Virus record (IMG/VR): IMGVR_UViG_2923159863_000006
DNA length: 64,000 nt
Source of the DNA: a virus
Taxonomy: Duplodnaviria; Heunggongvirae; Uroviricota; Caudoviricetes
Reading direction: 5' to 3' (one strand)
This document shows positions 26,089 through 40,993 of this stretch, one piece after another (position 1 is the stretch's first letter; each line of letters begins with the position of its first letter). Both the position numbers and the translations under genes were made by a program. The notes beneath the pieces are model-generated. The model ran no database searches. It saw nothing but the letters and a program-made list of their open reading frames with translations, and was not told the DNA's origin.

Positions 26089-28007
26089 GCTTCATCGGTG
26101 ACTTGGCGTTTGAGGATCAACGCGCGCTAGAAGATGAGGCGCTAGCCAATCCCGCAGTAAATGACACATCTCCAGATTTTTGGGATGGGTCGCTTGATTC
26201 TATTGGCACGGGCTTCATCCGTGGAGCGTTTGAGGCTGCATCGTCGGTAGAAGCAGGTTTTAACAATCTCTGGATCAGCGGGCTGGATGCCGCTGCATCT
26301 GCATTCTTGCCTGAGCCTCGCGGTGGCGGCACGCCTAGCGTAACTGATGCGGAAACAATGTTGCGCGATGAGCAGGCCAAGGCGAATGCTGAATACATCA
26401 CAAACCTTCGACCAGATCCTGAAACTACCGGCATGGCAGCCCAGGTTACTGGCGAACTGGCAGCCGTAATCCCTCGCACCATCGCAGGTTTTGCTGCCGG
26501 GGGGCCAGTTGGAGGAGCAATTGCCGCAGGCGCTCCGGCTGGATATGCAGGCGCTATTGAGGCTGAAGCGCAGGGAATTGACCCTGAGACGGCTAGAATT
26601 AAAGGTGCTATCGACGCTGCCACATATGGGATTGGTGCACTGATGCCGGCAGCTAGGTTCGTCGGCGCTGCTGTTCCTGACTTTGCTGTAACGGTTGGGG
26701 CAAACGTCGGCCTCGGTGTTGCATCTCGCGGCGGGACTGCTGCGCTACTGGAAGCTAATGGTTACACCCAGCAGGCCCAGCAGTATAAGGCCCTTGACGC
26801 CACTAGCATGGCGGTTGACGCTGTTCTTGGAGCGGCATTCTGGGGTGTAGGGAGGATCGGCGCTCGCGCTCCTCAGCAAGATATAGACGCAGCACTGGCA
26901 GCAAACAACAGCGGCCATGCGCAAGATGGATCGGCCCCAGGGGCTCCGGTTGACCCTGCCTCATCAGTTGCCCATCAAAGCGCTCTGGACTTGGCTATCA
27001 GGCAATTATCCCGAAATGAACCCGTAGACCTTTCGCCTATTGCGCCTTTGGTGGATAGAGCCGAGTTCCTTCGCGGTAATCGTGTTGGGCCAGATGACGC
27101 GGCTATCCGCTCAGCTGCGGAGCAGGAAGTTATCCCGCTGATTCGCCAGGAACTTGAGGCGGAAGCTGGCGGACGCTCAGGCGTCATTAACGACTTAAAG
27201 GTGGAGCGCGCATATCTCAGCTCGGAACTGTCGCGCATCGCAGACACATTCAAAAGCCGCGCCAAGGACTTCCAAGGCCAGCGAATGTCGCGTAAGCAGG
27301 CAGAGTCTGCCGCTCGCCGCGCGATAGCTAGTGAGCGCGCTTCGCTTCAAACCAGAATTACCGAGATAGATCGAGTTTTTTCCGAGAACCGTGCAGCAGA
27401 GCGTGCAGCCGGGGAAATAAACCAGATTGACCGAGGTGAAATCCCGGCGCGATTCATGGACCGCATTGCTTCACGCGAGGCGGAAATTAAGGATGGTTAT
27501 CGCAAGACCGCTCTTGTAAGCAGTGTCAGTCCTGATCGAGGCGCTGCACTTATGCGCCTTGCCAACGATGAGATTCGGAAAATCCTTCCAGAGCAATTCC
27601 CCAATCAGTCTGCTCCTGATGCTACCTCAGTGCGCACCCCTGAGCGTGATGCCGCATCCGCTGTAGATGATGCGCTAGCGAATCCAGGCCGAGGTATCTC
27701 TCGCGCCACGCCTCGCACCGACGAGGCGGCTAGGTCTGGCGGCCCAGAGAGTCAAGCAAGACCCAAATCTTCCGGGCGAGCCGATGAAAGCGAACTGGAT
27801 CCAGTGGTTTCGGATTTGGTCCAGTCAATTATGGCAGGAGAGCGCGAAATAATGCTGCCCACTGGAGCGGTTGATGCGGACGGGAATATGGTCACTGTCT
27901 CGGCCCGCGAGCTACTTGAGCAGGCGGACGCTCAGGTGGCGCGCGCCGAGAATGACTCCAAGGGAATTATTGCTGCTGCGCTTTGTGCGCTGAGGTTTGG
28001 AAACTGA
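26085..28007 (+). CDS. Internal virion / ejection protein with Gly/Ala-rich membrane-like segments (640 aa)
   Basis: AGGPVGGAIAAGAPAGYAGAIEA...VGLGVASRGG. ATGA overlap with the upstream gene. Confidence 0.55.
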   Translation: MSFIGDLAFEDQRALEDEALANPAVNDTSPDFWDGSLDSIGTGFIRGAFEAASSVEAGFNNLWISGLDAAASAFLPEPRGGGTPSVTDAETMLRDEQAKANAEYITNLRPDPETTGMAAQVTGELAAVIPRTIAGFAAGGPVGGAIAAGAPAGYAGAIEAEAQGIDPETARIKGAIDAATYGIGALMPAARFVGAAVPDFAVTVGANVGLGVASRGGTAALLEANGYTQQAQQYKALDATSMAVDAVLGAAFWGVGRIGARAPQQDIDAALAANNSGHAQDGSAPGAPVDPASSVAHQSALDLAIRQLSRNEPVDLSPIAPLVDRAEFLRGNRVGPDDAAIRSAAEQEVIPLIRQELEAEAGGRSGVINDLKVERAYLSSELSRIADTFKSRAKDFQGQRMSRKQAESAARRAIASERASLQTRITEIDRVFSENRAAERAAGEINQIDRGEIPARFMDRIASREAEIKDGYRKTALVSSVSPDRGAALMRLANDEIRKILPEQFPNQSAPDATSVRTPERDAASAVDDALANPGRGISRATPRTDEAARSGGPESQARPKSSGRADESELDPVVSDLVQSIMAGEREIMLPTGAVDADGNMVTVSARELLEQADAQVARAENDSKGIIAAALCALRFGN

Positions 28008-30550
28008 TGAGACGGCAATGTATTCAAGCTGTGCAGCAGGCGATTGGGCGCCCGCTCAATCAGCCAGAAATCAAGGATATCGAGGCGCGCATATCTCGCA
28101 ACATGAGGGAGCTTGCGCGTATCGACCCGAACTGGCAGACGCTTACTCGTAATGACCGGATTACAGCCGCTGGCCAGCGCGCCGCGAATGAACTAACCGC
28201 CGAGGCTGCAAAGGCGCGTCAGCGCACAGCGCTCACTATCCTTGCCCATGATCGCGTGCAAAACTTTCTAGAGGGGTATGACGGCAACCGTCTTGAGGCC
28301 TTGGATAGAATCCTAGCATTCTCTTCTGATTACCCAGGAATCCAGTCAATCGAATCTGCATCTCGCGCAATCCGAGACGAGGCAATGGGTCGCTTGCTAG
28401 ATGTTATCGACCAGACGCGCGGTCGATTTCTTGGTCTTATCGCGAACCGCGAAGGCACCACTGCGCTGGTGCGCGAACTTCATGGAGAAGATTCCGGGGT
28501 TCCGGCAGCGCGTGAGGCGGCGCGCCAATACCATGAGGTTGCCGAGAGCCTTCGCCAGCGCTTCAATAGGGCGGGCGGTGATATTGGTCGGCTAGATGAC
28601 TGGGCTTTGCCCCGTGGGCATTCTCAATACCGTATCGCTCGCGACCTTGCCGGCTGGGTTGACCAACACATGGGTTGGGTTGATCGCAGCCGCTACCTGA
28701 ACGAAGACGGAACCCGCATGACGGATGACCAGCTTCGTGATTTCCTGACTCATGCCGGGACAACGCTAGCGACTGGTGGAGTGAACAAAGTCGAGCCAGG
28801 AAGGGTCGGCGGAAGTGGGATGCGTGCGAATAGAGGCAGCGAGTCTCGCCAGATCCACTACCGTGACGCAGATGCATACATGGCTGCGCAGGAAGCGTAT
28901 GGCGACAAGAATATTATGGATCTGATGTTTGGCCATATTGACCAGATTTCTCGCGACATCGCGCTTGTTGAAACTTTAGGGCCGAATCCGAACCACGCGT
29001 TCAAATATTTCTCAGAATCTGCATTCCAGCATGAGGCTGTGTCATCGCCGAGAGATATAAGTCGGCGCCTTAACAAGCAGCGTAAGCGGCTAGATTACCT
29101 TTACACCGAGGTTGCTGGTACGCGCGAGCCGCCCGTCTCTGCGCGCATTGCAAACTGGTTCGATACATATCGCGGGATTAACGTAGCATCTAGGCTGGGT
29201 AGTGCGGTAATTACGGGGTTTTCTGACCAGGGAACAATCGCACTTACCGCAAAGATGAATGGCATGCCAGTAATGAGGGTCTTTTCCAATGAGGCGAAGA
29301 TGCTCAACCCGCTGAATGACCAGCATCGCCGCATTGCCAGTCGCGCTGGTTTGGGCATTGACCAGCTAATGGGTAGCATGGCGCGCTGGGGGGCTGACGG
29401 TCTTGGCCATGACGCTGAAGTGGCAGGTCGAGCATCGGGTTACTCGCAGACAGCGGCAACAACGCTTCTCCGCGCGTCAGGCATGAATGCTATTGATGCA
29501 GCCAACCGGCGTGCTTTTGGCGCAACCATGATGGATGCTGTCGGATACCTAACGCGCAACCACGAATCCATGTCCTCTCTTGAAGCAGGGGATCGGGCAA
29601 GGCTGCGCAATATGGGTGTGACGGATACCGACTTCTCTGTTTGGCGCTTGGCTGAAACTGAAGACTGGCGCGGCATAGGAGACACCATCCTGACTGCGGG
29701 TAGCATCTACAGGATCACAGACGAGGCTCTTTCAGATATTTCCGCGCGAACACGTACCAGCCCGCAGCGTTTGAGAGACCAGGCCGCCACCAAGTTACTC
29801 GGCTCCGTTCTTGATGAAACCAACATGGCTATCCCTGCGCCAGGGGCTAGGGAGAGAGCATTCATGCATGGGGGCAAAGCCCGTGGAGAGTGGGGCGGCG
29901 AGCTTGCTCGATCCTTCTGGCAGTTCAAGTCCTACTCTGTGTCCATGGTCATGAAGCACTGGAAGAGAGCTTTCGCTCAGCAAACCGGCTGGGGAAAGGC
30001 CGGCTATATGGCGGCGATCTTCGCAAGCACAACTGTGCTTGGAGCTATTTCCCTTCAGCTTAACGAGATAGCCAGCGGGCGCGACCCAAAAAACATGCTA
30101 GACGCCGATGATACGACTGGTGTTCCAGGTCTTCGATTTGCTTTGGCTGCAATGCTTAAAGGGGGCGCCCTGTCTATCTATGGCGACTTCCTATTCTCGG
30201 ATACGACCAGCTATGGAACCTCTCCGCTTGCAGCAATCGGAGGCCCCGTAGCCGGGGACATTGAGGCGCTATTCAAAATCAGAGGGACGGCACAGGACCT
30301 AAAAGGCGACCAGCTTGGAGGGAACCTTGTGAAATTCGCAAAGAGCCACATCCCTGGAGCAAACCTCTGGTACACCAAAGCTGCCACTGATCACATGATC
30401 TTCCACCAGTTGCAAGAGTACTTCTCTCCCGGCTACCTTCGTCGCATGGAGCAGAGAGCCCGCAAGGAATTCGGGCAAAGCTACTGGTGGGAGCCTGGAG
30501 ATTACACCCCTCGAAGAGCGCCAGCCTTAGAATCTGCTTTTGGGCCTTAG
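27983..30550 (+). CDS. Internal virion / ejection protein (855 aa)
   Basis: Third large gene of the set. C-terminal hydrophobic segment. Confidence 0.55.
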   Translation: MCAEVWKLMRRQCIQAVQQAIGRPLNQPEIKDIEARISRNMRELARIDPNWQTLTRNDRITAAGQRAANELTAEAAKARQRTALTILAHDRVQNFLEGYDGNRLEALDRILAFSSDYPGIQSIESASRAIRDEAMGRLLDVIDQTRGRFLGLIANREGTTALVRELHGEDSGVPAAREAARQYHEVAESLRQRFNRAGGDIGRLDDWALPRGHSQYRIARDLAGWVDQHMGWVDRSRYLNEDGTRMTDDQLRDFLTHAGTTLATGGVNKVEPGRVGGSGMRANRGSESRQIHYRDADAYMAAQEAYGDKNIMDLMFGHIDQISRDIALVETLGPNPNHAFKYFSESAFQHEAVSSPRDISRRLNKQRKRLDYLYTEVAGTREPPVSARIANWFDTYRGINVASRLGSAVITGFSDQGTIALTAKMNGMPVMRVFSNEAKMLNPLNDQHRRIASRAGLGIDQLMGSMARWGADGLGHDAEVAGRASGYSQTAATTLLRASGMNAIDAANRRAFGATMMDAVGYLTRNHESMSSLEAGDRARLRNMGVTDTDFSVWRLAETEDWRGIGDTILTAGSIYRITDEALSDISARTRTSPQRLRDQAATKLLGSVLDETNMAIPAPGARERAFMHGGKARGEWGGELARSFWQFKSYSVSMVMKHWKRAFAQQTGWGKAGYMAAIFASTTVLGAISLQLNEIASGRDPKNMLDADDTTGVPGLRFALAAMLKGGALSIYGDFLFSDTTSYGTSPLAAIGGPVAGDIEALFKIRGTAQDLKGDQLGGNLVKFAKSHIPGANLWYTKAATDHMIFHQLQEYFSPGYLRRMEQRARKEFGQSYWWEPGDYTPRRAPALESAFGP

Positions 30551-30567
30551 CTGGTATTGGTTTTGAT

Positions 30568-30918
30568 ATGGAGATTTCTATGAGCTTTTGGGATTTAACT
30601 TCATTTATAGGTCTAGGCGCCGCCCTGTCTTTTGGGCAGACACACAAGAGAGTTTCATCTGGTTTATATGCTGACATTTGTGGGATTTTGATAATCCCGT
30701 GCGTCATATCAATACTTTGGTCTATGTCTCTTGTTTTTTCATGGTGGACTATAGCTATATTTTTGGTTATGTCGCTTGTTGTTGGTTTTATTAACGGTAC
30801 ATTTCTTAGGTCTGGCTTCGGAATGGAGTCACTTGTATCTATGCAGCCAATATTAGGTACGACGTTTGTTGTGTGTAGCATTTCTTCTTGGTGGCCGGCA
30901 ATATCTAAACTGATTTAG
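30568..30918 (+). CDS. AT-rich multi-TM membrane protein in the sieA position (candidate superinfection-exclusion moron)
   Basis: GC about 38 percent. Three to four hydrophobic helices. Sits between the ejection genes and the tailspike. Confidence 0.45.
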   Translation: MEISMSFWDLTSFIGLGAALSFGQTHKRVSSGLYADICGILIIPCVISILWSMSLVFSWWTIAIFLVMSLVVGFINGTFLRSGFGMESLVSMQPILGTTFVVCSISSWWPAISKLI

Positions 30919-31016
30919 AGATAGAGGCGCCATCAACCGGAACGCCTAGTCTAGTTAACCCCCCCCCAGAGAACCCCGCACTTCGCGGGGTTTTCGCATT
31001 TCTGGAGCATCGAAAA

Positions 31017-33293
31017 TTGACCGTACCTACCAATACCAGCGTTGTTGAGTACGAAGGCAATGGCGTTACCACGGCATTCCCTGTGCCGTTCAAGTTCCCG
31101 GCCAATGACGACCTTGTGGTTACGAAAGTCTATAACGACGTTGCAAATGTCTTGGTGCTCGGAACTGATTACACAGTGGTGGGTGCTGGTGCGCAGAGTG
31201 GCGGAGCCGTTATCGCCACTAGCGCTCCTGAAAATGGGGCGACCATCAACATAACCCGCGAGCTTGAAACTGTTCAGGAAACAGATCTTAGAAACCAGGG
31301 TAGGTACTTCGCAGAGACGCACGAAAGCGTATTCGATTATTTGACTATGCTTATTCAGCAAGGATTTGCTGTTCTGGCTAGAACCCTGAAGCGGCCAGTC
31401 GGTAAAGACTATTTTGACGCGGAAAATCGAAGAATCTCAAGGGTAGATGATCCTGTAGAGGATGGAGATGCTGCTAACAAAGTATGGACTCAGCAGTATG
31501 TTGGGTCTTTGATCTCTAGCGGCACCGGACCGATTAACCTTGCTTCTAACGTCATCTATTTTTCTCCTGAACTGGTTCCGCATGTTCTACAGGATCTTTC
31601 TGGCGGATCTTCCTCTGATGGCGCGGCGCTAGTTTCTCGCGCAACTGTCGCTCTCGACTCTGTTTACAACCTACAGGGCGCCCGGAAGATTTCCAATCAA
31701 CTGATGCGCGTTGCCGGCTACTACCCAGGCGGATCTGTATCTGGAAACTCAGCGGCCGCTGGTGGCGGCCTGTTCCGATGGGATGGCGCTAGACCGAAGT
31801 CTCAACACAATGGCGGCACCATCATCAGCCCGACCGTTCCATGGAACGGACTCCAAAGCACATTAGGTGCATACCTATTGGGATCTGGAGAAACTTCACC
31901 TGGCGAGAATGGCTGCTGGGTTCGTGTTGCTGATGATGTCAAGCTTGTTGACTTTGGTGGGGTTGTAAGTGAGTCCGTCGATTCATCCGCCGCTTTTTAT
32001 GCAGCGCTGAAGTACTGCTTATCGACTAATAAGGAACTCTACCTGCCAGAAGGCGTAGTTCGCGTAAACTCTGCTGCTGTAATAGATGGTGCCACAACGA
32101 TTTTCTCGTCTGTGAAAATTCGAGGTACTTTCAAGACAAGTGGAGTGGCTGCTGGTTATGTGGTTAGCAGAGTTGGAAGCCTGATCTATACTAATGGAAA
32201 CAGCGCTCTAGACATTTCGTTCAACGACTTTAGGAACGAGAACTTTGATATCCGTGGAGTGGCATTTGTAGACACCTCATTCTATCCTCCGGGAACTCCT
32301 GCAAGCTCGAATCCTGCGATAATTATTAGAAAGGGTAATCCTGATGGCAGCAGCAATCGATATATAACTGGTAACGTTCTTGAGGACGTTGCTTTCGTTA
32401 GCTATCAAGACGCTGTGAAAACTATTGGGGTTGCAACAGGGTTGCCGACCTATAACTACGTTGGTCCAACCTCGTTGAATCGTGTGTACTTCTATAAGTG
32501 CGGAACCGCTATGCATCTTCAGGATTGCACGTACAATCATCTATTCCTGAATGAATGTCTTCTCTTTGATCTGTCGTCTCAAGCTATATTCCTGACAAAG
32601 ACGGTTAGCGGGACTGGCGGCAACGTAGATGTAACGTTCAGCAATTGTGTGTTCGAATCGATTTGGGGGATTATGAATACGGCCAATGGGTTGACGTCTT
32701 CCACGAAACGTAACACGGCAGTTTTCAATTCTTGCAATAGAGAATTCTGCGGGCTGTACGGCCCGACAGGCGGAGGCGGAAACTTCGCAGGGAGTCCGCT
32801 TGGGTATATAGGTCACACCGATGTAATGATCAATGGAAATTGGGAGAGAGGTCAGGCTTTTGGGGAAACTGCTTTACCGGCAATCGATTCTGGTGCTGTT
32901 ATTTTCGCGAGCAGATATGTTGATGTTCTTATGAATGGCGGCCAAGTTGGATCTCCAGAATACGTCAACGTTGTTGACGTAAGCGGGACAATTCCAGCCT
33001 CTGGCAGCCTGACCAAGACGTTCAATGTGAGCGGATCGTTTGTGTTGAATGCTGACGTCGCATATGACGACGGGTTTGGCGGGCACCAGAATGTAGTTGC
33101 GTATGGCAACCCTACTGGCTCAAAGGCGCGGGACGTGACAGGGACGATCATTTCTGCTGGTCTATCTGCGACCTACGGGGACGGACCGTCGGGTGCGGCT
33201 TTCACCGTTACGTTCAATAACGGGACTGCATCGCCGATCAATGTGAAGATCCGGGTCACGAACAAAGCAGGCTTGATCGTTACTGTTTCGTGA
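31017..33293 (+). CDS. Tailspike with N-terminal particle-binding domain and right-handed beta-helix (likely polysaccharide depolymerase), 758 aa
   Basis: N-terminus VEYEGNGVTTAFPVPFKF is typical of fibre/spike adaptor domains. Long repeated hydrophobic beta-strand units of pectate-lyase type. Lower GC. Last gene before the att. Confidence 0.65.
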   Translation: MTVPTNTSVVEYEGNGVTTAFPVPFKFPANDDLVVTKVYNDVANVLVLGTDYTVVGAGAQSGGAVIATSAPENGATINITRELETVQETDLRNQGRYFAETHESVFDYLTMLIQQGFAVLARTLKRPVGKDYFDAENRRISRVDDPVEDGDAANKVWTQQYVGSLISSGTGPINLASNVIYFSPELVPHVLQDLSGGSSSDGAALVSRATVALDSVYNLQGARKISNQLMRVAGYYPGGSVSGNSAAAGGGLFRWDGARPKSQHNGGTIISPTVPWNGLQSTLGAYLLGSGETSPGENGCWVRVADDVKLVDFGGVVSESVDSSAAFYAALKYCLSTNKELYLPEGVVRVNSAAVIDGATTIFSSVKIRGTFKTSGVAAGYVVSRVGSLIYTNGNSALDISFNDFRNENFDIRGVAFVDTSFYPPGTPASSNPAIIIRKGNPDGSSNRYITGNVLEDVAFVSYQDAVKTIGVATGLPTYNYVGPTSLNRVYFYKCGTAMHLQDCTYNHLFLNECLLFDLSSQAIFLTKTVSGTGGNVDVTFSNCVFESIWGIMNTANGLTSSTKRNTAVFNSCNREFCGLYGPTGGGGNFAGSPLGYIGHTDVMINGNWERGQAFGETALPAIDSGAVIFASRYVDVLMNGGQVGSPEYVNVVDVSGTIPASGSLTKTFNVSGSFVLNADVAYDDGFGGHQNVVAYGNPTGSKARDVTGTIISAGLSATYGDGPSGAAFTVTFNNGTASPINVKIRVTNKAGLIVTVS

Positions 33294-33415
33294 TCTGGAG
33301 AAGGAAGGCGTGTACCATTTTTTGTACCAATCGCTGCGAATTCTGGCGAATCATGTCGCCTGAAAGCCTTGATTTTACAGCGCTGCGCATCGCTTTACAT
33401 CGCGAAAAAAATCGC

Positions 33416-33443
33416 ATGGTGATGTTAGCTGTAGATATCAAGG
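33416..33443. other. Internal att (attP-like junction) carrying a ybiT 5'-end mimic
   Basis: Same 27 bp as 1563-1590, preceded by phage rather than ybiT sequence. Confidence 0.5.
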
Positions 33444-33471
33444 CATTGTCCTGCGGGGCTTTGCGAGATGG

Positions 33472-34689
33472 TTACGCGCTTTCCTCTGCTTCCTGTACCA
33501 ATTCCGTACCAGTTTTAACCCTGGTCTGTAGCTTCTCCAGCTCGCTCCAATCCGAGGCGGAGTTAAGCCACTTGGCATAAGTCGATAGCAGCATCTGCAC
33601 GCTGTGGCCTAGCTGCCCAGCGATAAACGCAGGGTTCATGCCAGCCATCAGGCACATGGTTGCGTATGTGTGGCGGGTGTCATACTGCCGGCGCCTTCTG
33701 ATGGATAGAGCATCAAGCGCGGCGTGGAAGTGCTTTATGGTAACACTTGGCTCCTTGATCCACAGCCCGCCTTTGCTGGGCGGGAATACGAACGGGCTGA
33801 CTGCGAACTCCGAGACGGATGCGACCTGCTTCAGGCGCGCAATCCGCTTGGCCTCTGCCAGGGCATTTAAGGCACGATCATTGAGCAGCACGTCGCGCTC
33901 ATGCTTGGTCTTTACTCGCTCCTCGATCCCGCGATCTATGACGATCCGGCACACATGAATACGTCGTGCCTCTTCGTCTACCTCATCCCATCGAAGGGCG
34001 AACGCCTCTCCAGGCCGAAGACCAGTGAAGAACAGGAATTCGTACAGTGCGGCGTAGATCCTAGAGTACTTCCCTAGGGTCGCGTACAGGTGCTGGATGA
34101 TGCGTTCTGCCTCGTCCCTGGTGAATGGATCTACCAGTTTCTTAGACACCCGCGGCTTCTCAAGGGGCGCCATCGGGTTCTTCTTGATCAGGCCGTCTTT
34201 CACAGCGGAATCTAGGATCGTCGACAGCTTGAACATCGCGTTTCGCTTCACGCCTGGCGACGTCCACTCGATGCTGCTGATGATTCGGCGCAAGAGGGTA
34301 GGCGTGATTTGATCAAGCCGGGCTACTGCTAGATGCGGCATCCAGTATTGGTTGAGGATGCTCTTGTAGTTCTTCCGTGTCCCAAGCACAATCTCTCGGC
34401 TGTCTAGCCAGAGTTGAGCATGCTCACCGAACAGAGGGATTTGGCTGCTGACCGATTCCGCAATCGCAGACCCTGGGAAGAACTCTGCATACTTGGCTTC
34501 ATCCATGATGCCAAGCTTGATTGCCTGGACTACCTGATCTCTAAGACCGGATGCAGTCTTAATCCCTTTTTGCGTCGCGGGATAGGGGAGTGTTTCGCAC
34601 TTCCTTGTTCCGTTCCACATGAAGCGGATACGGATAGAGTTGCCGATGACTTCCACCCCGGTGGGCATACCCAAAGGCTTTCGAGCCAT
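33472..34689 (-). CDS. int: Tyrosine integrase (identical to 1621-2838)
   Basis: As above. Confidence 0.9.
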   Translation of the reverse strand: MARKPLGMPTGVEVIGNSIRIRFMWNGTRKCETLPYPATQKGIKTASGLRDQVVQAIKLGIMDEAKYAEFFPGSAIAESVSSQIPLFGEHAQLWLDSREIVLGTRKNYKSILNQYWMPHLAVARLDQITPTLLRRIISSIEWTSPGVKRNAMFKLSTILDSAVKDGLIKKNPMAPLEKPRVSKKLVDPFTRDEAERIIQHLYATLGKYSRIYAALYEFLFFTGLRPGEAFALRWDEVDEEARRIHVCRIVIDRGIEERVKTKHERDVLLNDRALNALAEAKRIARLKQVASVSEFAVSPFVFPPSKGGLWIKEPSVTIKHFHAALDALSIRRRRQYDTRHTYATMCLMAGMNPAFIAGQLGHSVQMLLSTYAKWLNSASDWSELEKLQTRVKTGTELVQEAEESA

Positions 34690-34871
34690 TCGTCGTATCT
34701 CCGTCGACTGTAGATTATTTTCCCGTTGACCTTGTTCCAGACGCCTTCTGGAATCTGTCCCTTTGACCGTCTGGTTTGTAGGGCGCGGTAGGTTATCCCA
34801 AGCAGCGCCGCCATGACCTGTTCGGGCACCTTGTCTTCGTACTCGATTTGCTCTGCGGTACTCATAGGCAA
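34530..34871 (-). CDS. xis: Excisionase / AlpA-like
   Basis: As 2679-3020. Confidence 0.45.
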   Translation of the reverse strand: MPMSTAEQIEYEDKVPEQVMAALLGITYRALQTRRSKGQIPEGVWNKVNGKIIYSRRRYDEWLESLWVCPPGWKSSATLSVSASCGTEQGSAKHSPIPRRKKGLRLHPVLEIR

Positions 34872-35109
34872 TACCTCTCCGCCCCAGCTATTGCCGGGGA
34901 GGGCATGATGGTAGGATTTAGACGCCCAGCCGGGTTAGCTCAGGGAGAGCTAGTGGCGCCCGGCTGGGCTTACAGCAACCGTCTGATCATTAATTTTCTT
35001 ATAAATCATGTGCTTATGTGTGATAGCACTAAGAAAATGAGTAAGACCGTCGGCAACCCGAGCAGCATGGTCTTCATGTAGCCCTTCATGACTCCGTTCC
35101 AGAACGGGC

Positions 35110-35295
35110 TCACTCCCCACCACCTGCCTTCCTGCGCTGATTCGCTCTGATCCTCTGCGCTTTTTTCTTGGCCTCGTCTCGGCTATCTGCCTCTATGCGA
35201 AACACTTCACACAGCGCATAGTCTGGATCATCTGGACTGCCTCCAGTGCTCCAGCTTCCGTCTGGGAAGCGGGCAACGGTCCATACTAGTTTCAT
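35110..35295 (-). CDS. Hypothetical 61-aa protein
   Basis: Conserved with 3259-3444. The upstream extension of the listed ORF overlaps the next gene out of frame. Confidence 0.3.
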   Translation of the reverse strand: MKLVWTVARFPDGSWSTGGSPDDPDYALCEVFRIEADSRDEAKKKAQRIRANQRRKAGGGE

Positions 35296-35639
35296 TCCCC
35301 ACCTCCCATCGACTTGCCGATCTCTGCGGCGGCTTCGGTGATTGCCAGCCTTGTCGCTGCCATCTCGCCTAGCTTTTCCCAATAGATCGCGCAGTATTCG
35401 TGACCTGCTTGGTTCGATACCAGGGTCCATTGGTTTTCTCGGTCCGGAGTGACTACAAGTCCGCGCTTCACAGCCAGCCTCAGCGCGTCGCCGTCGTCCT
35501 TCAGAGGGTTCCAGGTGGCCCGGTTATCCCAGCCGCTTCCATCGTTCAGAGGGCGCGCCATAGTTTCCCAGAACTCGGACCACGTGTATCCAACCCCCGC
35601 CGCCCGCGCCGCCAGTTCGAGTAGTTCGCGGTCGTTCAT
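35292..35639 (-). CDS. Hypothetical phage early protein (115 aa)
   Basis: Intact here. Frameshifted in copy 1. Confidence 0.45.
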   Translation of the reverse strand: MNDRELLELAARAAGVGYTWSEFWETMARPLNDGSGWDNRATWNPLKDDGDALRLAVKRGLVVTPDRENQWTLVSNQAGHEYCAIYWEKLGEMAATRLAITEAAAEIGKSMGGGE

Positions 35640-36046
35640 TTCTTGGCTCCTTCTATGGCTGCGTCGATTGCAGCGTCGAGGTGTTCTCCGAATAGATGCG
35701 ATGTGCGGTTACGAACCACCACAACTCCGCGCTCCTTCTGCCGCAATGCGCGATACCGCGCAGCATCCTTCGCCATGCGCCGAATCTGCTCTGGAATGCT
35801 GACATTGCCGCCGTCTGGAGGGTCCATGTAGTAGGTACCGGGGAGGGCGCTTGCGCATTGACTAAGCTCTGCCTCCAGCCGCTCAACCTCGGCAATCAGC
35901 CAGAGAACAACATCCGGAGAGGTCGCCACCATGAACTCCTGATCAACGTGGAACTCCGGGAAAGCATCTACGGATGAGGCCTTGTACCAGTCGCCTTTGT
36001 CGCGCGCCCGCTCCGCCAGCTCCTTCAGCTTGTTGGTGTCGGTCAT
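35636..36046 (-). CDS. Ead/Ea22-like protein
   Basis: Identical to 3783-4193. Confidence 0.6.
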   Translation of the reverse strand: MTDTNKLKELAERARDKGDWYKASSVDAFPEFHVDQEFMVATSPDVVLWLIAEVERLEAELSQCASALPGTYYMDPPDGGNVSIPEQIRRMAKDAARYRALRQKERGVVVVRNRTSHLFGEHLDAAIDAAIEGAKK

Positions 36047-36252
36047 TGCTTTTTCTCCAAGTGCTTATGAATCAGCCATTGGAGGAAGCTGCCCAAAATG
36101 CAAAGCACAAGCAGCACAGGGCCAAGGCCAACGATGTACCCGAGCGCGGCGCCAAGCCTCATCTCTAGGACGAAGATGAACCATTGGCTGATGGCAATTC
36201 CAATGGATGTCCCAAGCACGCAATATGCGAGCATCTTCAAAAACGTCTTCAT
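36043..36252 (-). CDS. Small two-TM membrane protein (69 aa)
   Basis: Hydrophobic. ATGA-coupled to the upstream gene. Confidence 0.45.
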   Translation of the reverse strand: MKTFLKMLAYCVLGTSIGIAISQWFIFVLEMRLGAALGYIVGLGPVLLVLCILGSFLQWLIHKHLEKKQ

Positions 36253-36563
36253 GGCGCCACCTCGATTCCGGCTTGCTGGAGGGCTTGAGTGATCCGGTCA
36301 GTCGCATAGCAGTAGCCGGTATCGAAGTTGTCACGGCAGGAGTTCTGCCAGTCACGTTGACAGTCCTCGATGCCGTCGTCCGGCAACTCCACCCTCAGAG
36401 CCGCGCGGCTGGCTTTCCAAGTCTCCCAATCCCATTGAATGTGCTCGTACTCGTACCGGCCATCAGCCTGTATGGAGAACAGGCCATCGCCAAAGTCGTC
36501 GTAATCAGTAGACCAACGCACTTTCGCGTGCGCTTCAAACTCGTCTCTCACTGCTTGCTCCAT
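36249..36563 (-). CDS. Hypothetical protein (104 aa)
   Basis: Intact ORF. Confidence 0.45.
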   Translation of the reverse strand: MEQAVRDEFEAHAKVRWSTDYDDFGDGLFSIQADGRYEYEHIQWDWETWKASRAALRVELPDDGIEDCQRDWQNSCRDNFDTGYCYATDRITQALQQAGIEVAP

Positions 36564-36764
36564 CTGCTCAACTCCTGTCCTTTCAACTCGGTCTGCCTGT
36601 AGAGTTCCTGCATATCCCCGACGACCCGGAAGATTCCCAGGACGAAGAGAACGATGACTATCACTGCCAATATGGTTTCGTTGTCGTTGTCCACGGTTGG
36701 TCCTCCGGGGGCGGATGCGTTTGTTTCGTTGTTGGGTGTCGATGCCGTGATTCCGGCATCGGTA

Positions 36765-37082
36765 TCAGTCGCCCGCCGCTTTGGCGATTAGGTGCATGAG
36801 CATTTCGCGCAGTTGCTCGCGCTCGAGCACCTGGCCGGTCTTTGCGTACTCGTCGGCTTGGCTCAGGATCGCGTCGATCTCGATGTTGAACATCGGCGAG
36901 AGCACGTCTGGCTCACACTGTTCGAGCAGCAACTGGATTGCTCGGGTCGGGTGCGCCATCGTGATCCCGAGCCAGTTGTAGGCCGAGGCAGTGCGGTAGT
37001 AGCGGAGGCCGGCGATCTCATGTCGGCGCGGCGGGCGGAAGGGTTTCGTGCGCATATTCAATCCGGGTAGTGGGTAGCCCAT
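36765..37082 (-). CDS. Hypothetical protein (105 aa)
   Basis: Intact ORF. Confidence 0.45.
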   Translation of the reverse strand: MGYPLPGLNMRTKPFRPPRRHEIAGLRYYRTASAYNWLGITMAHPTRAIQLLLEQCEPDVLSPMFNIEIDAILSQADEYAKTGQVLEREQLREMLMHLIAKAAGD

Positions 37083-37126
37083 TATCCGAATTGCTGTATA
37101 TGCGTACAGTGGTTGGCGATGGGTGG

Positions 37127-37390
37127 CTATGCCTGCTCGCTCAGCAGGGCGCGGAGTTCGTTGCGAGCTACGACGTAATCAGCATGCGAAAGCAGTGGCT
37201 CGCACAGCCTGCGCAAAAGCCCCTCGCTGACCACTACATGGCCCGCTGGAATAACTGCCAACTCCCGCACTTCATAGCCTGGCCAGTCCTGAGGGTTTGC
37301 TCTGACCATGTCGTGGTGCTCCTTGGAGCAGGGGCGCCATTCTCCCGGATGGCTTGTGAAGAACGAGTAGTACCGCTTCATCTCACCCAT
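37127..37390 (-). CDS. Hypothetical protein (87 aa)
   Basis: Intact ORF. Confidence 0.45.
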   Translation of the reverse strand: MGEMKRYYSFFTSHPGEWRPCSKEHHDMVRANPQDWPGYEVRELAVIPAGHVVVSEGLLRRLCEPLLSHADYVVARNELRALLSEQA

Positions 37391-37392
37391 TG

Positions 37393-37974
37393 CTAACTCT
37401 CCGTATCAAGTAGCGCCCGGCATACCGGGCAGTCCGGATCGCGTGCTTCGTGCCCCTCAAGGCAATCGGGGCACAGTCCGTTGTTCATGTGCTTGACTTT
37501 CCCGGTAGCGGACCTGCGGAGCGTGTCGAGCGCTGATTCGCTGACCGTCAGGCCGTTGAGGCGCGCCAGTTCGTCGAGGCAGGCGTTAAAGCCGTCCGTC
37601 TTCAGGTTCTCAGCGGTAGGCAGCAGGCCTCCCCATTGCCGGCGCTCCGGCACAACCACCACCCCTGCGCGCAGGGCTTCTAGGTCTTGCTCGACAACAT
37701 CCCGTTCGCGCATAGCTTTCAAGCACATGCGCCTGCTCTCGTCGGCGACATGTTTGAGATCCTCGATGTGCGCCCCGATCATCCGACCAATGTCATCCGG
37801 CTTGTCTGGGAATCGTGCGCGGTCTTCGAGAAGGCGCGCGACTTCCTCCCTTAGCGCCTGGGCCTCGGCTTCGAGCTTGGCGTAGTCGGCATCCGCGACG
37901 TGACCCTTCACAGCGCCGCAGTCCGGGCATTGCAGCGCGCCGAAATCCCAAGCTTCGTGCGAGCAGTTACTCAT
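37393..37974 (-). CDS. Zinc-ribbon protein with coiled-coil middle (193 aa)
   Basis: N-terminal CPDCG and C-terminal CPDCLEGHEARDPDCPVC cysteine pairs. Confidence 0.45.
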   Translation of the reverse strand: MSNCSHEAWDFGALQCPDCGAVKGHVADADYAKLEAEAQALREEVARLLEDRARFPDKPDDIGRMIGAHIEDLKHVADESRRMCLKAMRERDVVEQDLEALRAGVVVVPERRQWGGLLPTAENLKTDGFNACLDELARLNGLTVSESALDTLRRSATGKVKHMNNGLCPDCLEGHEARDPDCPVCRALLDTES

Positions 37975-38146
37975 GACCTACCTCCTTGCTGACCGACTTG
38001 TTCCAGGCATCTACCAAGCCTTCGCCGGTGAATGCCTGAACTGAGTGGTTGCACTTCGGGCAGTGCAAAGAGAGGTATCCCTCTTTATGCCTGATCCCAG
38101 CTAGGGCGCCGTCGTAGCCACATTTGCAGGGCTTCAACGTATCCAT
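37967..38146 (-). CDS. Lar-family restriction-alleviation-like zinc-finger protein (approx. 59 aa)
   Basis: CKCGYDG...HCPKCNHS. Lar-like size and cysteine spacing. Confidence 0.45.
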   Translation of the reverse strand: MDTLKPCKCGYDGALAGIRHKEGYLSLHCPKCNHSVQAFTGEGLVDAWNKSVSKEVGHE

Positions 38147-39450
38147 CACACCCCCTCCTTGCCGGGCGCGGCGGCGAGCAGGCCGCACACGTCCACCAGC
38201 ATCATGGACATGTTGGCCACGTCGGCGGCGTACTCGACGATGCCCGCCGCGTCGTTGTCCTTTGTCGCCTTCTGGAGCTTGGCCAAGTGGTAGTAGATTT
38301 CCAGCAGGGCAGTCCTGCGGTCCATTTGCAGCCAGCCGGGGCGGTCTCCTTTCCCGGCGTTGGCGTGCAGCTCATGCTCCATGCTTTTCAGGAACGGCAG
38401 CAGCACATCATCGTACTTGCCCGGCACGCTGTGCTGAGCCTGGGTGGTTTGTGCAGCCAGTTCCACGGCAGTGTCACACCCTGGTTCAGTGGTGAAGACT
38501 GCATTCTGCGCAGCTTTCAGCCTCTCCATTGCGAGAGAAATGGACCGGTCATAAATTTCTTTGTTGTCTGACTTGTCGCGGTCGCTGCGCATCCTATCAA
38601 TGTCGCGTTCTACATAACAAAGAAGCGAATTCAGCAATGACCTAAGTCCTGCGACTTCGGCCAGGGCGGCGTCGCGCTCTGCTTTCACTGAGCGCAGTAG
38701 TTCGCGCTGACCTGCCTGATTCTCCGCACGCCATTCGAGTGCTTCGCGAAGTTGATCAGCCTTAGCCCGCAGCGCCCCGACGATGCGGGCGTGCTGGGCG
38801 ACGGTCATCAGCTTTTCAGGGTCGTAAAATTCACCGCCCTCCTTGTCGCAATCGCCAGCGACAGCAAATGCCTTGAACCCTATGACGTTATGAACTTTCT
38901 CATTCGGCGTGAACAGGGTTGCAACGATCTCCGGCCGCTCCGCCTCTGCCTGCTCGGGCTTTGCGTCGGAAGACAGCTCTACTAGGTTTTCGCTCAGCAC
39001 CTTCGAGAACTCCGTGCCAAGCGGTTCGAAGCACTGTTCGCGAAACGCTTGTAGCCGCTCGATGCGTTCCGCCTCTTTCTCAGGAGTGGACTCGAACTCG
39101 TACAGCCGCTGGGCGGCTTCGACTACCAGACGAGACGACACGCCGGCGCTGAAGCGAATGGCTCCTACCTGGGCAGGCTTTTCCAGCTTCGGCCAGTGCT
39201 GCTCGGCCTGCGCCGGGGAGGGTTGCGCCAGGGCGGCGCGTAGGTCTGCAATCTCTGCCGCCATGTGCTCAACCAGCAGCGCGTCCGGCCAGAAGCCAGG
39301 GTCGCTGTTGGGATGCGCCGCCAAGATTCGTTCACGCCAGCCAATCACGCGCTCATCCCCGCCTGCCTGCTCTACCGCAGGATGTGCCGGGCACGGATGG
39401 ACGAGGGAGCCGTCGCCAGAAGGGCAGCTGCATTCATTCGCTTTGTTCAT
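38146..39450 (-). CDS. Hypothetical 434-aa protein; N-terminal Cys cluster, possible all-alpha NTP-pyrophosphohydrolase (MazG/DUF550-like) C-terminus
   Basis: C-terminus RRTALLEIYYHLAKLQKATKDNDAAGIVEYAADVANMSMMLVDVCGLL is reminiscent of MazG-like helices (weak). Confidence 0.4.
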   Translation of the reverse strand: MNKANECSCPSGDGSLVHPCPAHPAVEQAGGDERVIGWRERILAAHPNSDPGFWPDALLVEHMAAEIADLRAALAQPSPAQAEQHWPKLEKPAQVGAIRFSAGVSSRLVVEAAQRLYEFESTPEKEAERIERLQAFREQCFEPLGTEFSKVLSENLVELSSDAKPEQAEAERPEIVATLFTPNEKVHNVIGFKAFAVAGDCDKEGGEFYDPEKLMTVAQHARIVGALRAKADQLREALEWRAENQAGQRELLRSVKAERDAALAEVAGLRSLLNSLLCYVERDIDRMRSDRDKSDNKEIYDRSISLAMERLKAAQNAVFTTEPGCDTAVELAAQTTQAQHSVPGKYDDVLLPFLKSMEHELHANAGKGDRPGWLQMDRRTALLEIYYHLAKLQKATKDNDAAGIVEYAADVANMSMMLVDVCGLLAAAPGKEGV

Positions 39451-39653
39451 GGGAGCTTTCTCCAGGCCTCGGTTTCGAGGTCAGAAACGGTTATCAGTCG
39501 GCGCCGGCGCTCGATGTTTTCGAGTTGCAGGACATCGCCCAGGCTGTCGATGACGACCCAGTGAATGCCGGTGGGAATGTGCAGGTAGCGTGCTGGCGCG
39601 GGGGAACAGAGGGCGTTTATGCGGCGGACTGCGGGGCTTTCGTCGAATGGCAT
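39447..39653 (-). CDS. Hypothetical small protein
   Basis: ORF in operon. Confidence 0.3.
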   Translation of the reverse strand: MPFDESPAVRRINALCSPAPARYLHIPTGIHWVVIDSLGDVLQLENIERRRRLITVSDLETEAWRKLP

Positions 39654-39829
39654 GGCTCATCCTCCGGGTAGACCCGAACGCCATCGGCGCCCTGGGACTG
39701 GTTGATCGCCATCTGCTTAACCGCTCTCGCGATGCGCAGAATGTCGTCCGGCGTCATAAGCTGGCTTTCTTCAGGCCAGCCGGTGACCGTCACACCGCAA
39801 GGGCGGTGATTCGCTGTTAGCTGGTGCAT
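39617..39829 (-). CDS. Hypothetical small protein
   Basis: ORF in operon. Confidence 0.3.
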   Translation of the reverse strand: MHQLTANHRPCGVTVTGWPEESQLMTPDDILRIARAVKQMAINQSQGADGVRVYPEDEPCHSTKAPQSAA

Positions 39830-40016
39830 GGGGTTATTCCTGTTCGGTCAGGGGTGGCAGACTTCGACGACGCGGTGATAGTCGCCACGGAAGGGCATTG
39901 CCTTGTAACCCTGGTTCATGGGGTAGATTCCCCAGGACTGGCGAGAGCAGGCCGCCATCATCGCCGCGTACTTGATGACCTCGATGACGTCTTTCTTGAT
40001 GTGCATGACATGGCCC

Positions 40017-40352
40017 TCATGCACTCATCGCCGATTTGATCTGCGCTGAGTGGCTGCGGCTGACGGGTATCCAGTTCTCGGTTCCGAGCAGTAGTACCTC
40101 GCCGGCTTGGCTGTCATCAGGTCGGGTTTTGAACATGCTGATCAGCGAGCGTCGGACTAGGGCTTTCCGGTGGGCGCGGATGAACTCGTCGGCGAACTCA
40201 GTCTCCAGAGCCTTAAGCGTTTCGTTCAAGACAAGTACGCCATCCGGGTAGTACGCGATGACGTACTTGTCTTCGGCGACGAAGTGGGTGATCTGCGAGA
40301 CGGAGATTGCCTTGGAGTGCTTGCCGCAGGTGGCTTTGAGTACGGTTCTCAT
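40017..40352 (-). CDS. LytTR-domain DNA-binding protein
   Basis: MRTVLKATCGKHSKAISVSQITHFVAEDKYVIAYYPDGVLVLNETLKALE matches the LytTR signature. Confidence 0.6.
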   Translation of the reverse strand: MRTVLKATCGKHSKAISVSQITHFVAEDKYVIAYYPDGVLVLNETLKALETEFADEFIRAHRKALVRRSLISMFKTRPDDSQAGEVLLLGTENWIPVSRSHSAQIKSAMSA

Positions 40353-40993
40353 GCTGCCTTCTCCCGTAACTTTGCCTCGTACTCGTCGACAAGCAGCTTG
40401 AACGACCACAAGTCGGACTCAAGTTCCTCGATGTAGTCGTCGTCGCGCTTGAACTCTCGCCACCAGAGTTGACGGCCTACAGGCTCCAGCGCAGGGCAGT
40501 ACATGCCGACGTGCCAGAACTTGCGGCCAGTGATCCACATGCATCCTTGAACCTGATCCATGATTCCGCTGGCGTCGTTGTCGATGTGGAAGGCGCGAAG
40601 CTTCTCCGGGGCGAGGAAGCACTTGTACTCGCTGCCGCCATCCTCGCCGATCAGTCCGTCAGCGCTGGCTCCGAACATGCCGTCGTCGGTTGTCACGAAG
40701 CCGGCGCGCTGGATGATCAGGCCTGTCTGAATCTCGTGCTCCATGCGGGCCTCTGGTTCCAGTTCGTGACCACGCTTCATCTGCCAGGTCTCGAATCCTC
40801 CATCTAGCGGCTGCCCGCTGATACGCTCAACGGCCAGCTTGAAGGCGTAATCCAGAGCGGCGGAAGTCGGCTGGCCTTTGTTGGCGCCAGATTTAAGCCT
40901 TGCGCGGGCATCGCCGAACATACTGGCGGTGATGCACCCGGCCCTGGCCTGGTGCCATTCGGGGCTTCCTTGGTCGCAGGTGATAATAATCAT
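40349..40993 (-). CDS. YqaJ-type viral recombinase exonuclease
   Basis: CDQGSPEWHQARAGCITASMF is a classic YqaJ N-terminal motif. Confidence 0.8.
   Translation of the reverse strand: MIIITCDQGSPEWHQARAGCITASMFGDARARLKSGANKGQPTSAALDYAFKLAVERISGQPLDGGFETWQMKRGHELEPEARMEHEIQTGLIIQRAGFVTTDDGMFGASADGLIGEDGGSEYKCFLAPEKLRAFHIDNDASGIMDQVQGCMWITGRKFWHVGMYCPALEPVGRQLWWREFKRDDDYIEELESDLWSFKLLVDEYEAKLREKAA

What the first reader, a model, noticed from the sequence alone, without database searches (positions are those of the whole stretch)
33290..33470. Tandem arrangement: a decayed prophage and an intact prophage share one att and near-identical int modules
The internal junction at 33416 has phage sequence on both sides of the core (attP-like). 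The window-left junction has ybiT on one side (attL-like). Serial integration of related phages at the same site would produce this. Prophage A has since lost head, replication and lysis genes and gained foreign segments. Prophage B is complete.
Basis: inference. Interest (0 to 1): 0.5.

Follow-up and report, generated by a model that had tools for sequence, protein, structure and literature searches.

The report
Tandem prophage that is probably misassembled

Summary
The window carries attL at 1563 (ybiT | core | int) and a full attP at 33414 (tailspike, P arm | core | int). I found the matching attR 13.4 kb past the window, at window-coordinate 77385. Empty attB sites in other strains complete the four-way check; the core is the 10 bp GCATGGTGAT.

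The interpretation mostly fails. "Prophage A" is not an older relative of B. Its 4.3-kb int module and 12.6-kb late module match B with no reliable substitution (none in the late module). They differ only by 1-nt indels, and in each case the variant base is absent from other strains' copies of the same phage.

These indels cluster against three breakpoints: 5904/5905, 20807/20808 and one 4 kb left of the window. They also occur inside the unique foreign block next to its two ends. About 40 kb elsewhere has none.

The window is P. aeruginosa Pa127 (CP022000.1). The genome paper describes a PacBio HGAP assembly of 13 contigs, deposited as one record of the same total size. The sister strain's record holds a different-length piece of the same foreign phage, between filamentous-phage pieces.

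Most likely A is a finishing artefact. One 43,971-bp phage is real, seen in integrated form and in circular or tandem form. Interest is low.

The parts
1..1590 (-). ybiT-like ABC-F ATPase gene (529 aa, TTG start at 1590). This is the bacterial side of attL. Its first 9 codons (1564-1590) are phage-supplied.
   Evidence: ORF list. Pfam ABC_tran x2 and ABC_tran_Xtn on the identical protein. The 529-aa product is identical in strains with an empty site.
1563..1572 (.). 10-bp common core GCATGGTGAT in attL (B-O-P').
   Evidence: Four-way comparison of attB, attL, attP and attR.
1563..5904 (.). Int-module copy 1, equal to B 33414-37772. It is clean to 3507 and indel-ridden from 3508 to 5904. Together with about 5.6 kb of left chromosomal flank it forms a 9.9-kb island (window -4030 to 5904) with poor sequence at both ends.
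1621..2838 (-). Tyrosine integrase, copy 1 (405 aa), identical to copy 2.
   Evidence: Pfam Arm-DNA-bind_2, Phage_int_M, Phage_integrase.
5905..20807 (.). Foreign block C: 14.9 kb of a PAN70/CF60a-like siphophage. It holds early genes (+), a 384-aa integrase, a Panacea-domain gene pair, an unsplit attP near 14562, and tail genes (-). Both ends cut genes. 1-nt indels sit at 5905-6470 and 17799-20604; apart from an unresolved frame change at about 9567-10357 (seen only against a 64%-identical reference), the interior is clean.
12389..13543 (+). Integrase of phage C (384 aa). It is unrelated to the ybiT-site integrase module.
   Evidence: Pfam Arm-DNA-bind_2, Phage_integrase. The exact protein occurs once in this record.
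20808..33413 (+). Late-module copy 1, equal to B 64778-77384. Order: nozzle/tubular protein B, T7 gp14-like and large internal virion proteins, tailspike, P arm. 1-nt indels lie at 20859-23624; it is clean from 23625.
31017..33293 (+). Tailspike (758 aa). In other strains it is followed directly by attR and chromosomal genes.
   Evidence: (PF27114; loci L002-L006, L008).
33311..33413 (.). attP P arm, collinear with JBD44 attP. It holds two direct GTACCA motifs at 33312 and 33324, which are candidate arm-type integrase sites.
33414..33423 (.). 10-bp common core in the internal attP-type junction (P-O-P').
33424..33520 (.). attP P' arm. It holds a synonymously recoded copy of ybiT codons 1-6 (33424-33441) and two direct GTACCA motifs at 33495 and 33506, and it overlaps the 3' end of int.
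33472..34689 (-). Tyrosine integrase, copy 2 (405 aa).
33414..64000 (.). Phage B, 43,971 bp from core to core; it continues to 77384 past the window. Gene order: int, Erf/YqaJ recombination genes, methylase, immunity and replication genes, Q-like antiterminator, lysis genes, terminase, T7-type portal, capsid, tubular A. It has zero indels against other strains' copies wherever a near-identical reference covered it (33414-39847, 42981-44954 and 52457 to the window end).

Best explanation
**What is real (shown).** One temperate podophage, B, is 43,971 bp long. It combines a JBD44-type int/att module with an Ab31/YA3/HB2107-3I-type structural module. Its tyrosine integrase recombines a 10-bp core, GCATGGTGAT, that overlaps codons 7-10 of the ABC-F gene ybiT, including the internal Met codon. 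attP carries a synonymously recoded copy of the first six codons, so the lysogen still makes the identical 529-aa protein. The sequenced DNA held integrated junctions (attL, attR) and an attP junction.

**What is probably not real (inferred).** "Prophage A" (1563-33413) is not one physical element. It consists of three separately assembled HGAP contigs joined end to end when 13 contigs were turned into one record:
- the end of a 9.9-kb attL contig;
- a 14.9-kb contig of an unrelated phage C in circular form;
- the redundant leading 12.6 kb of a phage-B contig that runs late genes, attP, int. Such an end is what HGAP produces for a circular or concatemeric molecule, or for a collapsed tandem.

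The "frameshift decay" is unpolished consensus at contig ends and inside long repeats.
For: **att system.**
- attB, attL, attP and attR fit exactly, and attR lies at 77385.
- The P arm matches free phage JBD44.
- JBD44 was reported to integrate between PA14_39110 and PA14_39130 (PMC9112912).

**Same phage, not a relative.**
- There are 0 mismatches over the 12.6-kb late module. In the 4.3-kb int module the only base differences lie in the garbled last 270 nt.
- Other strains' copies differ from B by 0-1 substitutions in 8.7 kb.

**Error signature.**
- At every A/B difference one copy departs from independent strains. A departs at 3508-5904 and 20859-23624; B departs at 70476-75919.
- Foreign block C, unique in the record as far as could be checked (its integrase occurs once), shows 0 substitutions but 12 indel events against three other strains, all at 17799-20604. 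Frame changes also occur at 5905-6470. Most interior proteins are 100% identical to CF60a with no frameshift.
- The left chromosomal flank has 34 indel columns in the 2.8 kb before synteny stops at window -4030, where filamentous-phage genes begin.
- About 40 kb elsewhere has no indel at all.
- Indel density rises toward each breakpoint.

**Provenance.** The strain is Pa127, sequenced on PacBio RS-II and assembled with HGAP/Quiver.

**No independent support.**
- Among the 24 contigs read that carry this integrase, only this record has tailspike-attP-int.
- The sister strain Pa124's record holds a shorter C piece (equal to window 10868-19896), also attP-unsplit and also with error-rich ends, between two filamentous-phage pieces.
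- Both A breakpoints are blunt, with 0-1 nt of homology, and three of the four cut edges lie within genes.
Against: - No reads were available, so physical linkage across 5904/5905 and 20807/20808 was not tested directly.
- The paper does not say how the 13 contigs became one record.
- Where the B contig ends and the attR-bearing piece begins is unclear. The 70476-75919 error zone could be a contig join, or a repeat interior that the polisher skipped.
- I could not show that ybiT or the flanks occur a second time in the record (one search did not return it), nor find the rest of phage C.
- The integrase occurs only twice in the record, so no separate clean copy of the integrated prophage exists there.
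- A rare real recombinant present in a minority of cells could give a partly similar pattern.
Confidence: 0.75

Rival explanations
1. The tandem lysogen is real but consists of two intact B copies (attL-B-attP-B-attR). The 44-kb repeat could not be resolved with reads of 20 kb or less, the assembly broke inside copy 1, and the C contig was dropped into the gap. The tandem is real; "decayed A" is still an artefact.
For: - attL, attP and attR lie in one orientation in the record.
- Copy 1's late module is clean for about 9.8 kb to the left of attP, which suggests many attP-spanning reads.
- Tandem lysogeny at one attB is a classical outcome of integrase recombination between an incoming attP and a resident attL or attR (own knowledge: lambda dilysogens).
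Against: - The attL piece is a 9.9-kb island with degraded ends whose left synteny breaks into filamentous-phage DNA. It is not the end of a long chromosomal contig.
- Circular or concatemeric phage DNA explains attP reads equally well.
- Circular-form pieces of two other phages (C and a Pf-like phage) sit next to it in both sister records.
Confidence: 0.13
2. A is a real 31.9-kb hybrid element. In this reading, a B genome had its central 27 kb replaced by 14.9 kb of circular phage C through two illegitimate crossovers, and the hybrid now sits in tandem with an intact B. It might be mobilised by B as a helper.
For: - The record shows exactly this structure.
- The retained B parts are collinear and in the same orientation as in B.
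- The right breakpoint falls 5 nt into the nozzle gene, close to a gene boundary.
- C is in circular form, as expected for recombination between replicating genomes.
Against: - If the hybrid were present in all cells, the ends of unique block C and the sequence beside them would be as clean as C's interior and the rest of the 91x assembly. Instead errors pile up on both sides of each breakpoint.
- No other assembly that was read shows the structure.
- The sister strain carries a different C fragment with different neighbours.
- A lacks replication and packaging genes (B 37773-64777 is absent from A), so spread as a unit is unlikely; no pac site was searched for.
Confidence: 0.08
3. An older, related phage A integrated first at ybiT. 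It decayed by deletions, frameshifts and foreign insertions, and a second related phage B later integrated beside it.
For: The att topology fits. A lacks most essential genes.
Against: - There are no substitutions between A and B in the 12.6-kb late module, and none outside a garbled 270-nt stretch in the 4.3-kb int module, yet about 30 indel events separate them. Both copies match other strains' prophages at the substitution level.
- Real decay leaves substitutions as well as indels (own knowledge).
- B carries the same kind of "decay" at 70476-75919.
Confidence: 0.03

Closest known systems
Pseudomonas phage JBD44 (NC_030929) int/attP module and its integration site between PA14_39110 and PA14_39130
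   Same: The 405-aa integrase module and attP are collinear with JBD44, at about 92-93% identity over the matched parts. The 10-bp core and P' arm are identical, and the P arm, including the GTACCA pair, is similar. The published integration locus fits the ybiT / 111-aa-gene interval (PMC9112912). My mapping of the PA14 locus tags onto these genes is from memory, not tested.
   Different: JBD44 has a different late region; endolysin and small genes precede its attP instead of a tailspike. B's structural genes are of the Ab31/YA3/HB2107-3I podophage type.
Temperate podophages vB_PaeP_Tr60_Ab31, YA3, HB2107-3I and MPK9
   Same: The late module (nozzle, internal virion proteins) is 95-96% identical. 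The replication, lysis and terminase region is about 94% identical over the matched parts.
   Different: YA3 and Ab31 integrate into a tRNA-Ser gene through a 64-bp attP/attB identity (PMC7326022). B uses the JBD44-type integrase and the 10-bp core in ybiT. B is therefore a mosaic of two known module types.
Tandem (multiple) lysogens of lambdoid phages at a single attB
   Same: The record has the diagnostic order attL - attP - attR in one orientation.
   Different: In a true tandem lysogen each unit is a phage genome, and the junctions are supported at chromosomal depth (own knowledge). Here unit A is a composite bounded by error-rich sequence, and linkage is unproven.
HGAP/Celera long-read assembly by-products: short low-coverage contigs, and contigs of circular molecules with redundant overlapping ends
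   Same: Short pieces of 9.9 and 14.9 kb have clean centres and indel-rich ends. A phage contig starts with sequence that recurs 44 kb later. The errors are deletion-biased 1-nt indels in short G/C runs. The source paper documents 13 contigs.
   Different: The identification is indirect. No read pile-up, quality values or contig table for this record were available.
Prophages that integrate into a protein-coding gene and replace the displaced end (for example coliphage 21 and e14 at icd; own knowledge)
   Same: attP carries a substitute for the displaced gene end, so the host protein is unchanged. YbiT is identical in lysogens and in strains with an empty site.
   Different: Here the 5' end is replaced, only 9 codons lie upstream of the crossover, and the replacement is fully synonymous.

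Membership tests
Tyrosine-integrase (lambda-type) attachment-site system | One common core is present in attB, attP, attL and attR, with the arms exchanged as B-O-B', P-O-P', B-O-P' and P-O-B'. | tested here: met
   All four sites were aligned. The core is the 10 bp GCATGGTGAT and the flanks swap exactly.
Tyrosine-integrase (lambda-type) attachment-site system | A tyrosine recombinase gene with an arm-binding N-terminal domain lies next to attP. | tested here: met
   The 405-aa product carries precomputed Pfam hits PF12167 Arm-DNA-bind_2, PF22022 and PF00589. The gene ends 49 nt from the core.
Tyrosine-integrase (lambda-type) attachment-site system | Repeated arm-type sites lie in the P and P' arms. 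| tested here: inconclusive
   Two direct GTACCA motifs lie in each arm, four in 350 bp against 0.39 per kb in the window. The P-arm pair is conserved in JBD44. Binding was not tested.
Tandem polylysogen at one attB | The order attL - attP - attR occurs in one orientation on one molecule. | tested here: inconclusive
   The order is present in the deposited record. The record is a join of 13 contigs, and the stretch between attL and attP contains two breakpoints with a contig-end signature. Read-level linkage cannot be tested here.
Tandem polylysogen at one attB | Each unit between att sites is a phage genome, whether intact or a recognisable derivative of one lineage. | tested here: not met
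   Unit A is 4.3 kb of B, then 14.9 kb of an unrelated siphophage cut inside genes, then 12.6 kb of B.
Decayed (cryptic) prophage | It has diverged from intact relatives through substitutions as well as indels and deletions. | tested here: not met
   No substitution separates A from B outside a garbled 270-nt stretch, in about 17 kb of shared sequence. All differences are short indels in which one copy departs from other strains.
Long-read finishing artefact (concatenated contigs) | Sequence quality collapses on both sides of the junction, including in unique sequence, while interiors are clean. | tested here: met
   Indel events cluster at -4022 to -1216, 3508-5904, 5905-6470, 17799-20604 and 20859-23624. 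There are none in about 40 kb of other sequence that could be compared.
Long-read finishing artefact (concatenated contigs) | There is a documented multi-contig origin, and the junction is absent from independent assemblies. | tested here: met
   The paper lists 13 contigs with a total size equal to the record length. Only this record shows tailspike-attP-int among the 24 contigs read. The sister record has a different C fragment with different neighbours.
Long-read finishing artefact (concatenated contigs) | No reads span the junction. | not testable with these tools

The most novel reading that the evidence does not exclude
Prophage A is a real 31.9-kb hybrid kept in tandem with its parent. 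It retains only B's integrase/att module and its tail and ejection-protein module, joined through a 14.9-kb piece of an unrelated siphophage that brings its own integrase, an unsplit attP and a Panacea-domain gene pair. Such an element would be a helper-dependent, satellite-like derivative formed by recombination between two co-induced phages.
Probability: 0.08. Interest if true: 0.35.

Novelty: not a real feature. Interest (0 to 1): 0.1.

Why it matters
As biology it matters little. The real components are of known kinds: a JBD44-type integrase and attachment site on a mosaic Ab31/YA3-like podophage, inserted at a site used in many P. aeruginosa genomes.

The practical value is as a caution. 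A GenBank record labelled as a complete genome contains an apparent "tandem decayed plus intact prophage". Prophage finders and comparative studies would count it as two prophages, one degraded, and would score dozens of phage and flanking genes as pseudogenes.

The artefact can be recognised from sequence alone. Differences between repeat copies are indels only, the variant base is always absent from other strains, and the differences pile up against the breakpoints.

If the minority reading were true, the locus would be a small example of a hybrid defective phage formed between two resident phages.

Tried and rejected
- **tRNA target.** None is present in the window. The target is the 5' end of a protein-coding gene.
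- **A third core copy inside the window.** None was found. attR lies beyond the window.
- **Reaching attR by direct look-up.** A tailspike look-up returned only copy A for this record, probably because copy B is frameshifted. I got there by looking up a 338-aa frameshift product that exists only in copy B but is also encoded as a sub-ORF of the clean copy A gene (window 26991-28007).
- **The foreign block as a Mu-like transposable phage.** I considered this because relatives annotate a "transposase". I rejected it: that gene is a tyrosine integrase, the relatives are integrase-bearing siphophages, and the block spans an unsplit attP.
- **Real mutational decay or a mismatch-repair mutator.** I rejected this because there are no substitutions, the runs affected are short, and both copies are affected in complementary zones.
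- **Short-read polishing failure in repeats.** I rejected this because the unique C sequence is also affected and the method was PacBio only.
- **A second copy of ybiT in the record**, which would prove redundancy. The protein is in 10,628 index blocks and this record was not among those read, so the test gave no information.
- **Error-checking the filamentous-phage piece left of the window.** No near-identical reference exists in the phage collection; the best is about 90% identical.
- **Microhomology at the two breakpoints.** There is 0-1 nt, which fits either an artificial join or illegitimate recombination, so it does not discriminate.
- **Literature search on tandem-prophage assembly artefacts.** It returned nothing usable.
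Full report
**1. What is at the coordinates.**

The window contains a 4.34-kb direct repeat, 1563-5904 and 33414-37772. Each copy begins with the same 30 nt, which occur twice in the window against 0 expected by chance. Each copy encodes an identical 405-aa tyrosine integrase on the minus strand, with an arm-binding domain.

To the left of 1563 lies the 5' end of a 529-aa ABC-F ATPase gene of the ybiT type, on the minus strand. To the left of 33414 lie about 100 nt that are collinear with the attP P arm of free phage JBD44. A 758-aa tailspike gene precedes them. No tRNA gene is present.

**2. The att system.**

In six other P. aeruginosa assemblies the same tailspike is followed by P arm, core and then chromosomal genes, which is an attR. 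Strains with an empty site supplied attB. The four sites fit exactly:

| Site | Left arm | Core | Right arm |
|---|---|---|---|
| attB | ...gccgaact | GCATGGTGAT | attcgcggtggagatcaactt... |
| attL | same as attB | GCATGGTGAT | gttagctgtagatatcaaggc... |
| attP | ...cgaaaaaaatc | GCATGGTGAT | same as attL |
| attR | same as attP | GCATGGTGAT | same as attB |

- The perfect core is 10 bp. It overlaps ybiT codons 7-10, including an internal Met codon.
- The next 18 nt of attP differ from attB only at third codon positions. They encode the same residues, (M)ISTANIT. YbiT is identical, all 529 residues, in lysogens and in strains with an empty site.
- Each arm has two direct GTACCA motifs, at 33312 and 33324 and at 33495 and 33506. 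The window background is 0.39 per kb. They are candidate arm-type sites; binding was not tested.
- JBD44 was reported to integrate between PA14_39110 and PA14_39130 (PMC9112912). From memory of the gene order I take this to be the same interval.

**3. Source of the window, and attR.**

Exact-protein look-ups place the window in CP022000.1, at window position = record position minus 3,599,692.

To read past base 64000 I used a frameshift product called only in the second copy of a 640-aa gene. It is also encoded as a sub-ORF of the clean first copy, at window 26991-28007. This gave the record out to window-coordinate 81983.

A third core lies at 77385 in an attR context identical to that of other strains. 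The chromosomal genes that flank the empty site follow it: the 111-aa gene, CHMI and others. The record reads attL(1563) - 31,851 bp - attP(33414) - 43,971 bp - attR(77385).

**4. What "prophage A" is made of.**

- **Second long repeat.** Window 20808-33413 equals 64778-77384. There are 0 mismatches over the 8.7 kb first compared and only single-base indel events over the rest.
- **Composition.** A is therefore B's first 4.3 kb, then 14.9 kb of foreign DNA (5905-20807), then B's last 12.6 kb. B's central 27 kb (37773-64777) is missing from A.
- **The foreign block C.** It matches PAN70/CF60a-type siphophages. It holds early genes, a different 384-aa integrase (12389-13543), a Panacea-domain gene pair and tail genes on the opposite strand.
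- **C is in circular form.** In strains where this phage type is integrated, homology to the window stops at 14562, just after the 74-aa tail-end gene. C therefore contains an unsplit attP.
- **Breakpoints.** Both ends of C cut genes: the repressor at 5905 and a 565-aa tail gene at 20807. The joins are blunt, with 0-1 nt of homology.

**5. The differences between copies are errors, and they mark contig ends.**

Every A/B difference was compared with independent strains whose prophages differ from B by 0-1 substitutions in 8.7 kb.

| Zone (window coordinates) | Indels | Which copy departs from other strains |
|---|---|---|
| -4022 to -1216 (left chromosomal flank) | 34 indel columns | This record. 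Synteny stops at -4030 and filamentous-phage genes follow. |
| 3508-5904 (A int module) | about 20 events | A in all cases |
| 5905-6470 (left end of C) | repeated frame changes inside otherwise identical proteins | window copy |
| 17799-20604 (right end of C) | 12 events, 0 substitutions, against three strains | window copy |
| 20859-23624 (A late module) | 12 events | A in all cases |
| 70476-75919 (B late module, past the window) | 21 events | B in all cases |

- Most are 1-nt deletions in short G or C runs. Density rises toward 5904 and falls away from 20808.
- C was unique in the record as far as could be checked; its integrase occurs there once. Its interior, 6491-17238, encodes many proteins 100% identical to CF60a without frameshifts. 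One unresolved frame change lies at about 9567-10357, seen only against a 64%-identical reference.
- No indel occurs in 1-3507, 23625-39847, 42981-44954 or 52457-70475, about 40 kb in total.
- Real decay cannot give about 60 indels and no substitutions in phage DNA that matches other strains' copies. Low coverage of a genuine element cannot leave a unique block clean in the middle and dirty only at its ends. The pattern is that of assembled pieces whose ends were poorly supported.

**6. Provenance.**

CP022000 is strain Pa127 (ST309). It was sequenced on PacBio RS-II with P4-C2 chemistry and assembled with HGAP/Quiver at about 91x. The announcement lists 13 contigs and a genome size of 7,148,302 bp, which is exactly the length of the single deposited record. 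How the contigs were joined is not stated. The window contains no N spacers.

The sister strain Pa124 (CP021774, same study) carries a shorter piece of the same phage C, equal to window 10868-19896. That piece is also attP-unsplit and also has indel-rich ends, and it lies between two filamentous-phage pieces. Neighbours that differ between sister records, plus error-rich ends, point to small contigs of extrachromosomal phage forms having been strung into the chromosome records.

Among the 24 contigs read that carry this integrase, only CP022000.1 shows tailspike-attP-int. All the others show ybiT-int.

**7. Best reading.**

- **Shown.** One phage B is present with a JBD44-type integrase, a 10-bp core in ybiT, and attL, attR and attP junction sequences in the assembly.
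- **Inferred (confidence about 0.75).** "Prophage A" is three pieces:
  - the end of a 9.9-kb attL contig (window -4030 to 5904);
  - a 14.9-kb contig of circular phage C;
  - the redundant leading 12.6 kb of a phage-B contig that runs through attP.
- **Origin of the attP junction.** It reflects either excised circular or concatemeric B DNA, or less probably a true B-B tandem lysogen (about 0.13).

**8. Comparison with known systems, and novelty.**

The int/att module is JBD44-like. The structural, replication and lysis modules are Ab31/YA3/HB2107-3I-like. Those phages integrate at tRNA-Ser instead (PMC7326022). B is thus an ordinary mosaic temperate phage, found nearly identical in many P. 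aeruginosa genomes.

Tandem lysogeny and replacement of a gene end by attP are classical. Nothing here lies outside known kinds, and the specific claim of a decayed prophage beside an intact one most likely describes a finishing artefact. Interest is low; the main use is as a warning about this record.

**9. Limits.**

- I had no reads, quality values or contig table.
- I could not show duplicated flanks in the record or find the rest of phage C.
- The nature of the 70476-75919 error zone is unresolved. It may be a contig join or an unpolished repeat interior.
- Two more single-G deletions in the right chromosomal flank (79172 and 81670, the latter probably inside braB) suggest that the attR-bearing stretch is also not of full quality.

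Noticed in passing
window 1573-1590 and 33424-33441: The phage attP carries a fully synonymous recoded copy of the first six ybiT codons (TTG ATA TCT ACA GCT AAC against the host's TTG ATC TCC ACC GCG AAT). Integration therefore leaves the 529-aa protein unchanged but gives the gene a phage-derived start and upstream region. Any effect on ybiT expression is unknown.
   Followed up: partly
window 13633-14496 (genes at 13633-14073 and 14086-14496, + strand): Next to phage C's integrase lies a 147-aa protein with a SocA_Panacea domain, followed by a 137-aa protein. Both are 100% identical to CF60a proteins. They are a candidate toxin-antitoxin or defence cargo pair beside attP.
   Followed up: no
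window about 14499-14790; repeat pair 14711-14785 and 15126-15201: Phage C's attP should lie here, because homology to integrated C-type prophages in other strains stops at 14562. An 82%-identical 76-nt direct repeat pair lies at and just right of it. Elsewhere, C-type prophages sit next to TetR and hydrolase genes (L045).
   Followed up: partly
L030 16870-21218 (window -4031 to -8379, left of the window) and L047 (CP021774.1): Pf1/WX-Y-like filamentous phage genes (HTH repressor, G2P replication protein, RstB-like, Zot) abut the attL island in Pa127 and flank the C piece on both sides in sister strain Pa124. One copy has a split replication gene. They are probably replicative-form contigs inserted into the records.
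   Followed up: partly
window 46597-46654 and 47306-47363 (weak third copy at 47398-47427): A 58-nt direct repeat (97% identical) lies in phage B's early/immunity region. It contains a hairpin (GATGCCC ... GGGCATC) and may be a repeated terminator or regulatory site.
   Followed up: no
L034 18206 and 20704 (window-coordinates 79172 and 81670, past the window): Two single-G deletions relative to three other strains lie in the chromosomal flank right of attR. No gene is called where braB (437 aa) should be. This is either further consensus error or a real braB frameshift.
   Followed up: no
window 185-224 and 1028-1067: A 40-nt, 90%-identical internal repeat lies within ybiT. It probably reflects the two ABC domains of an ABC-F protein and is trivial.
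   Followed up: no
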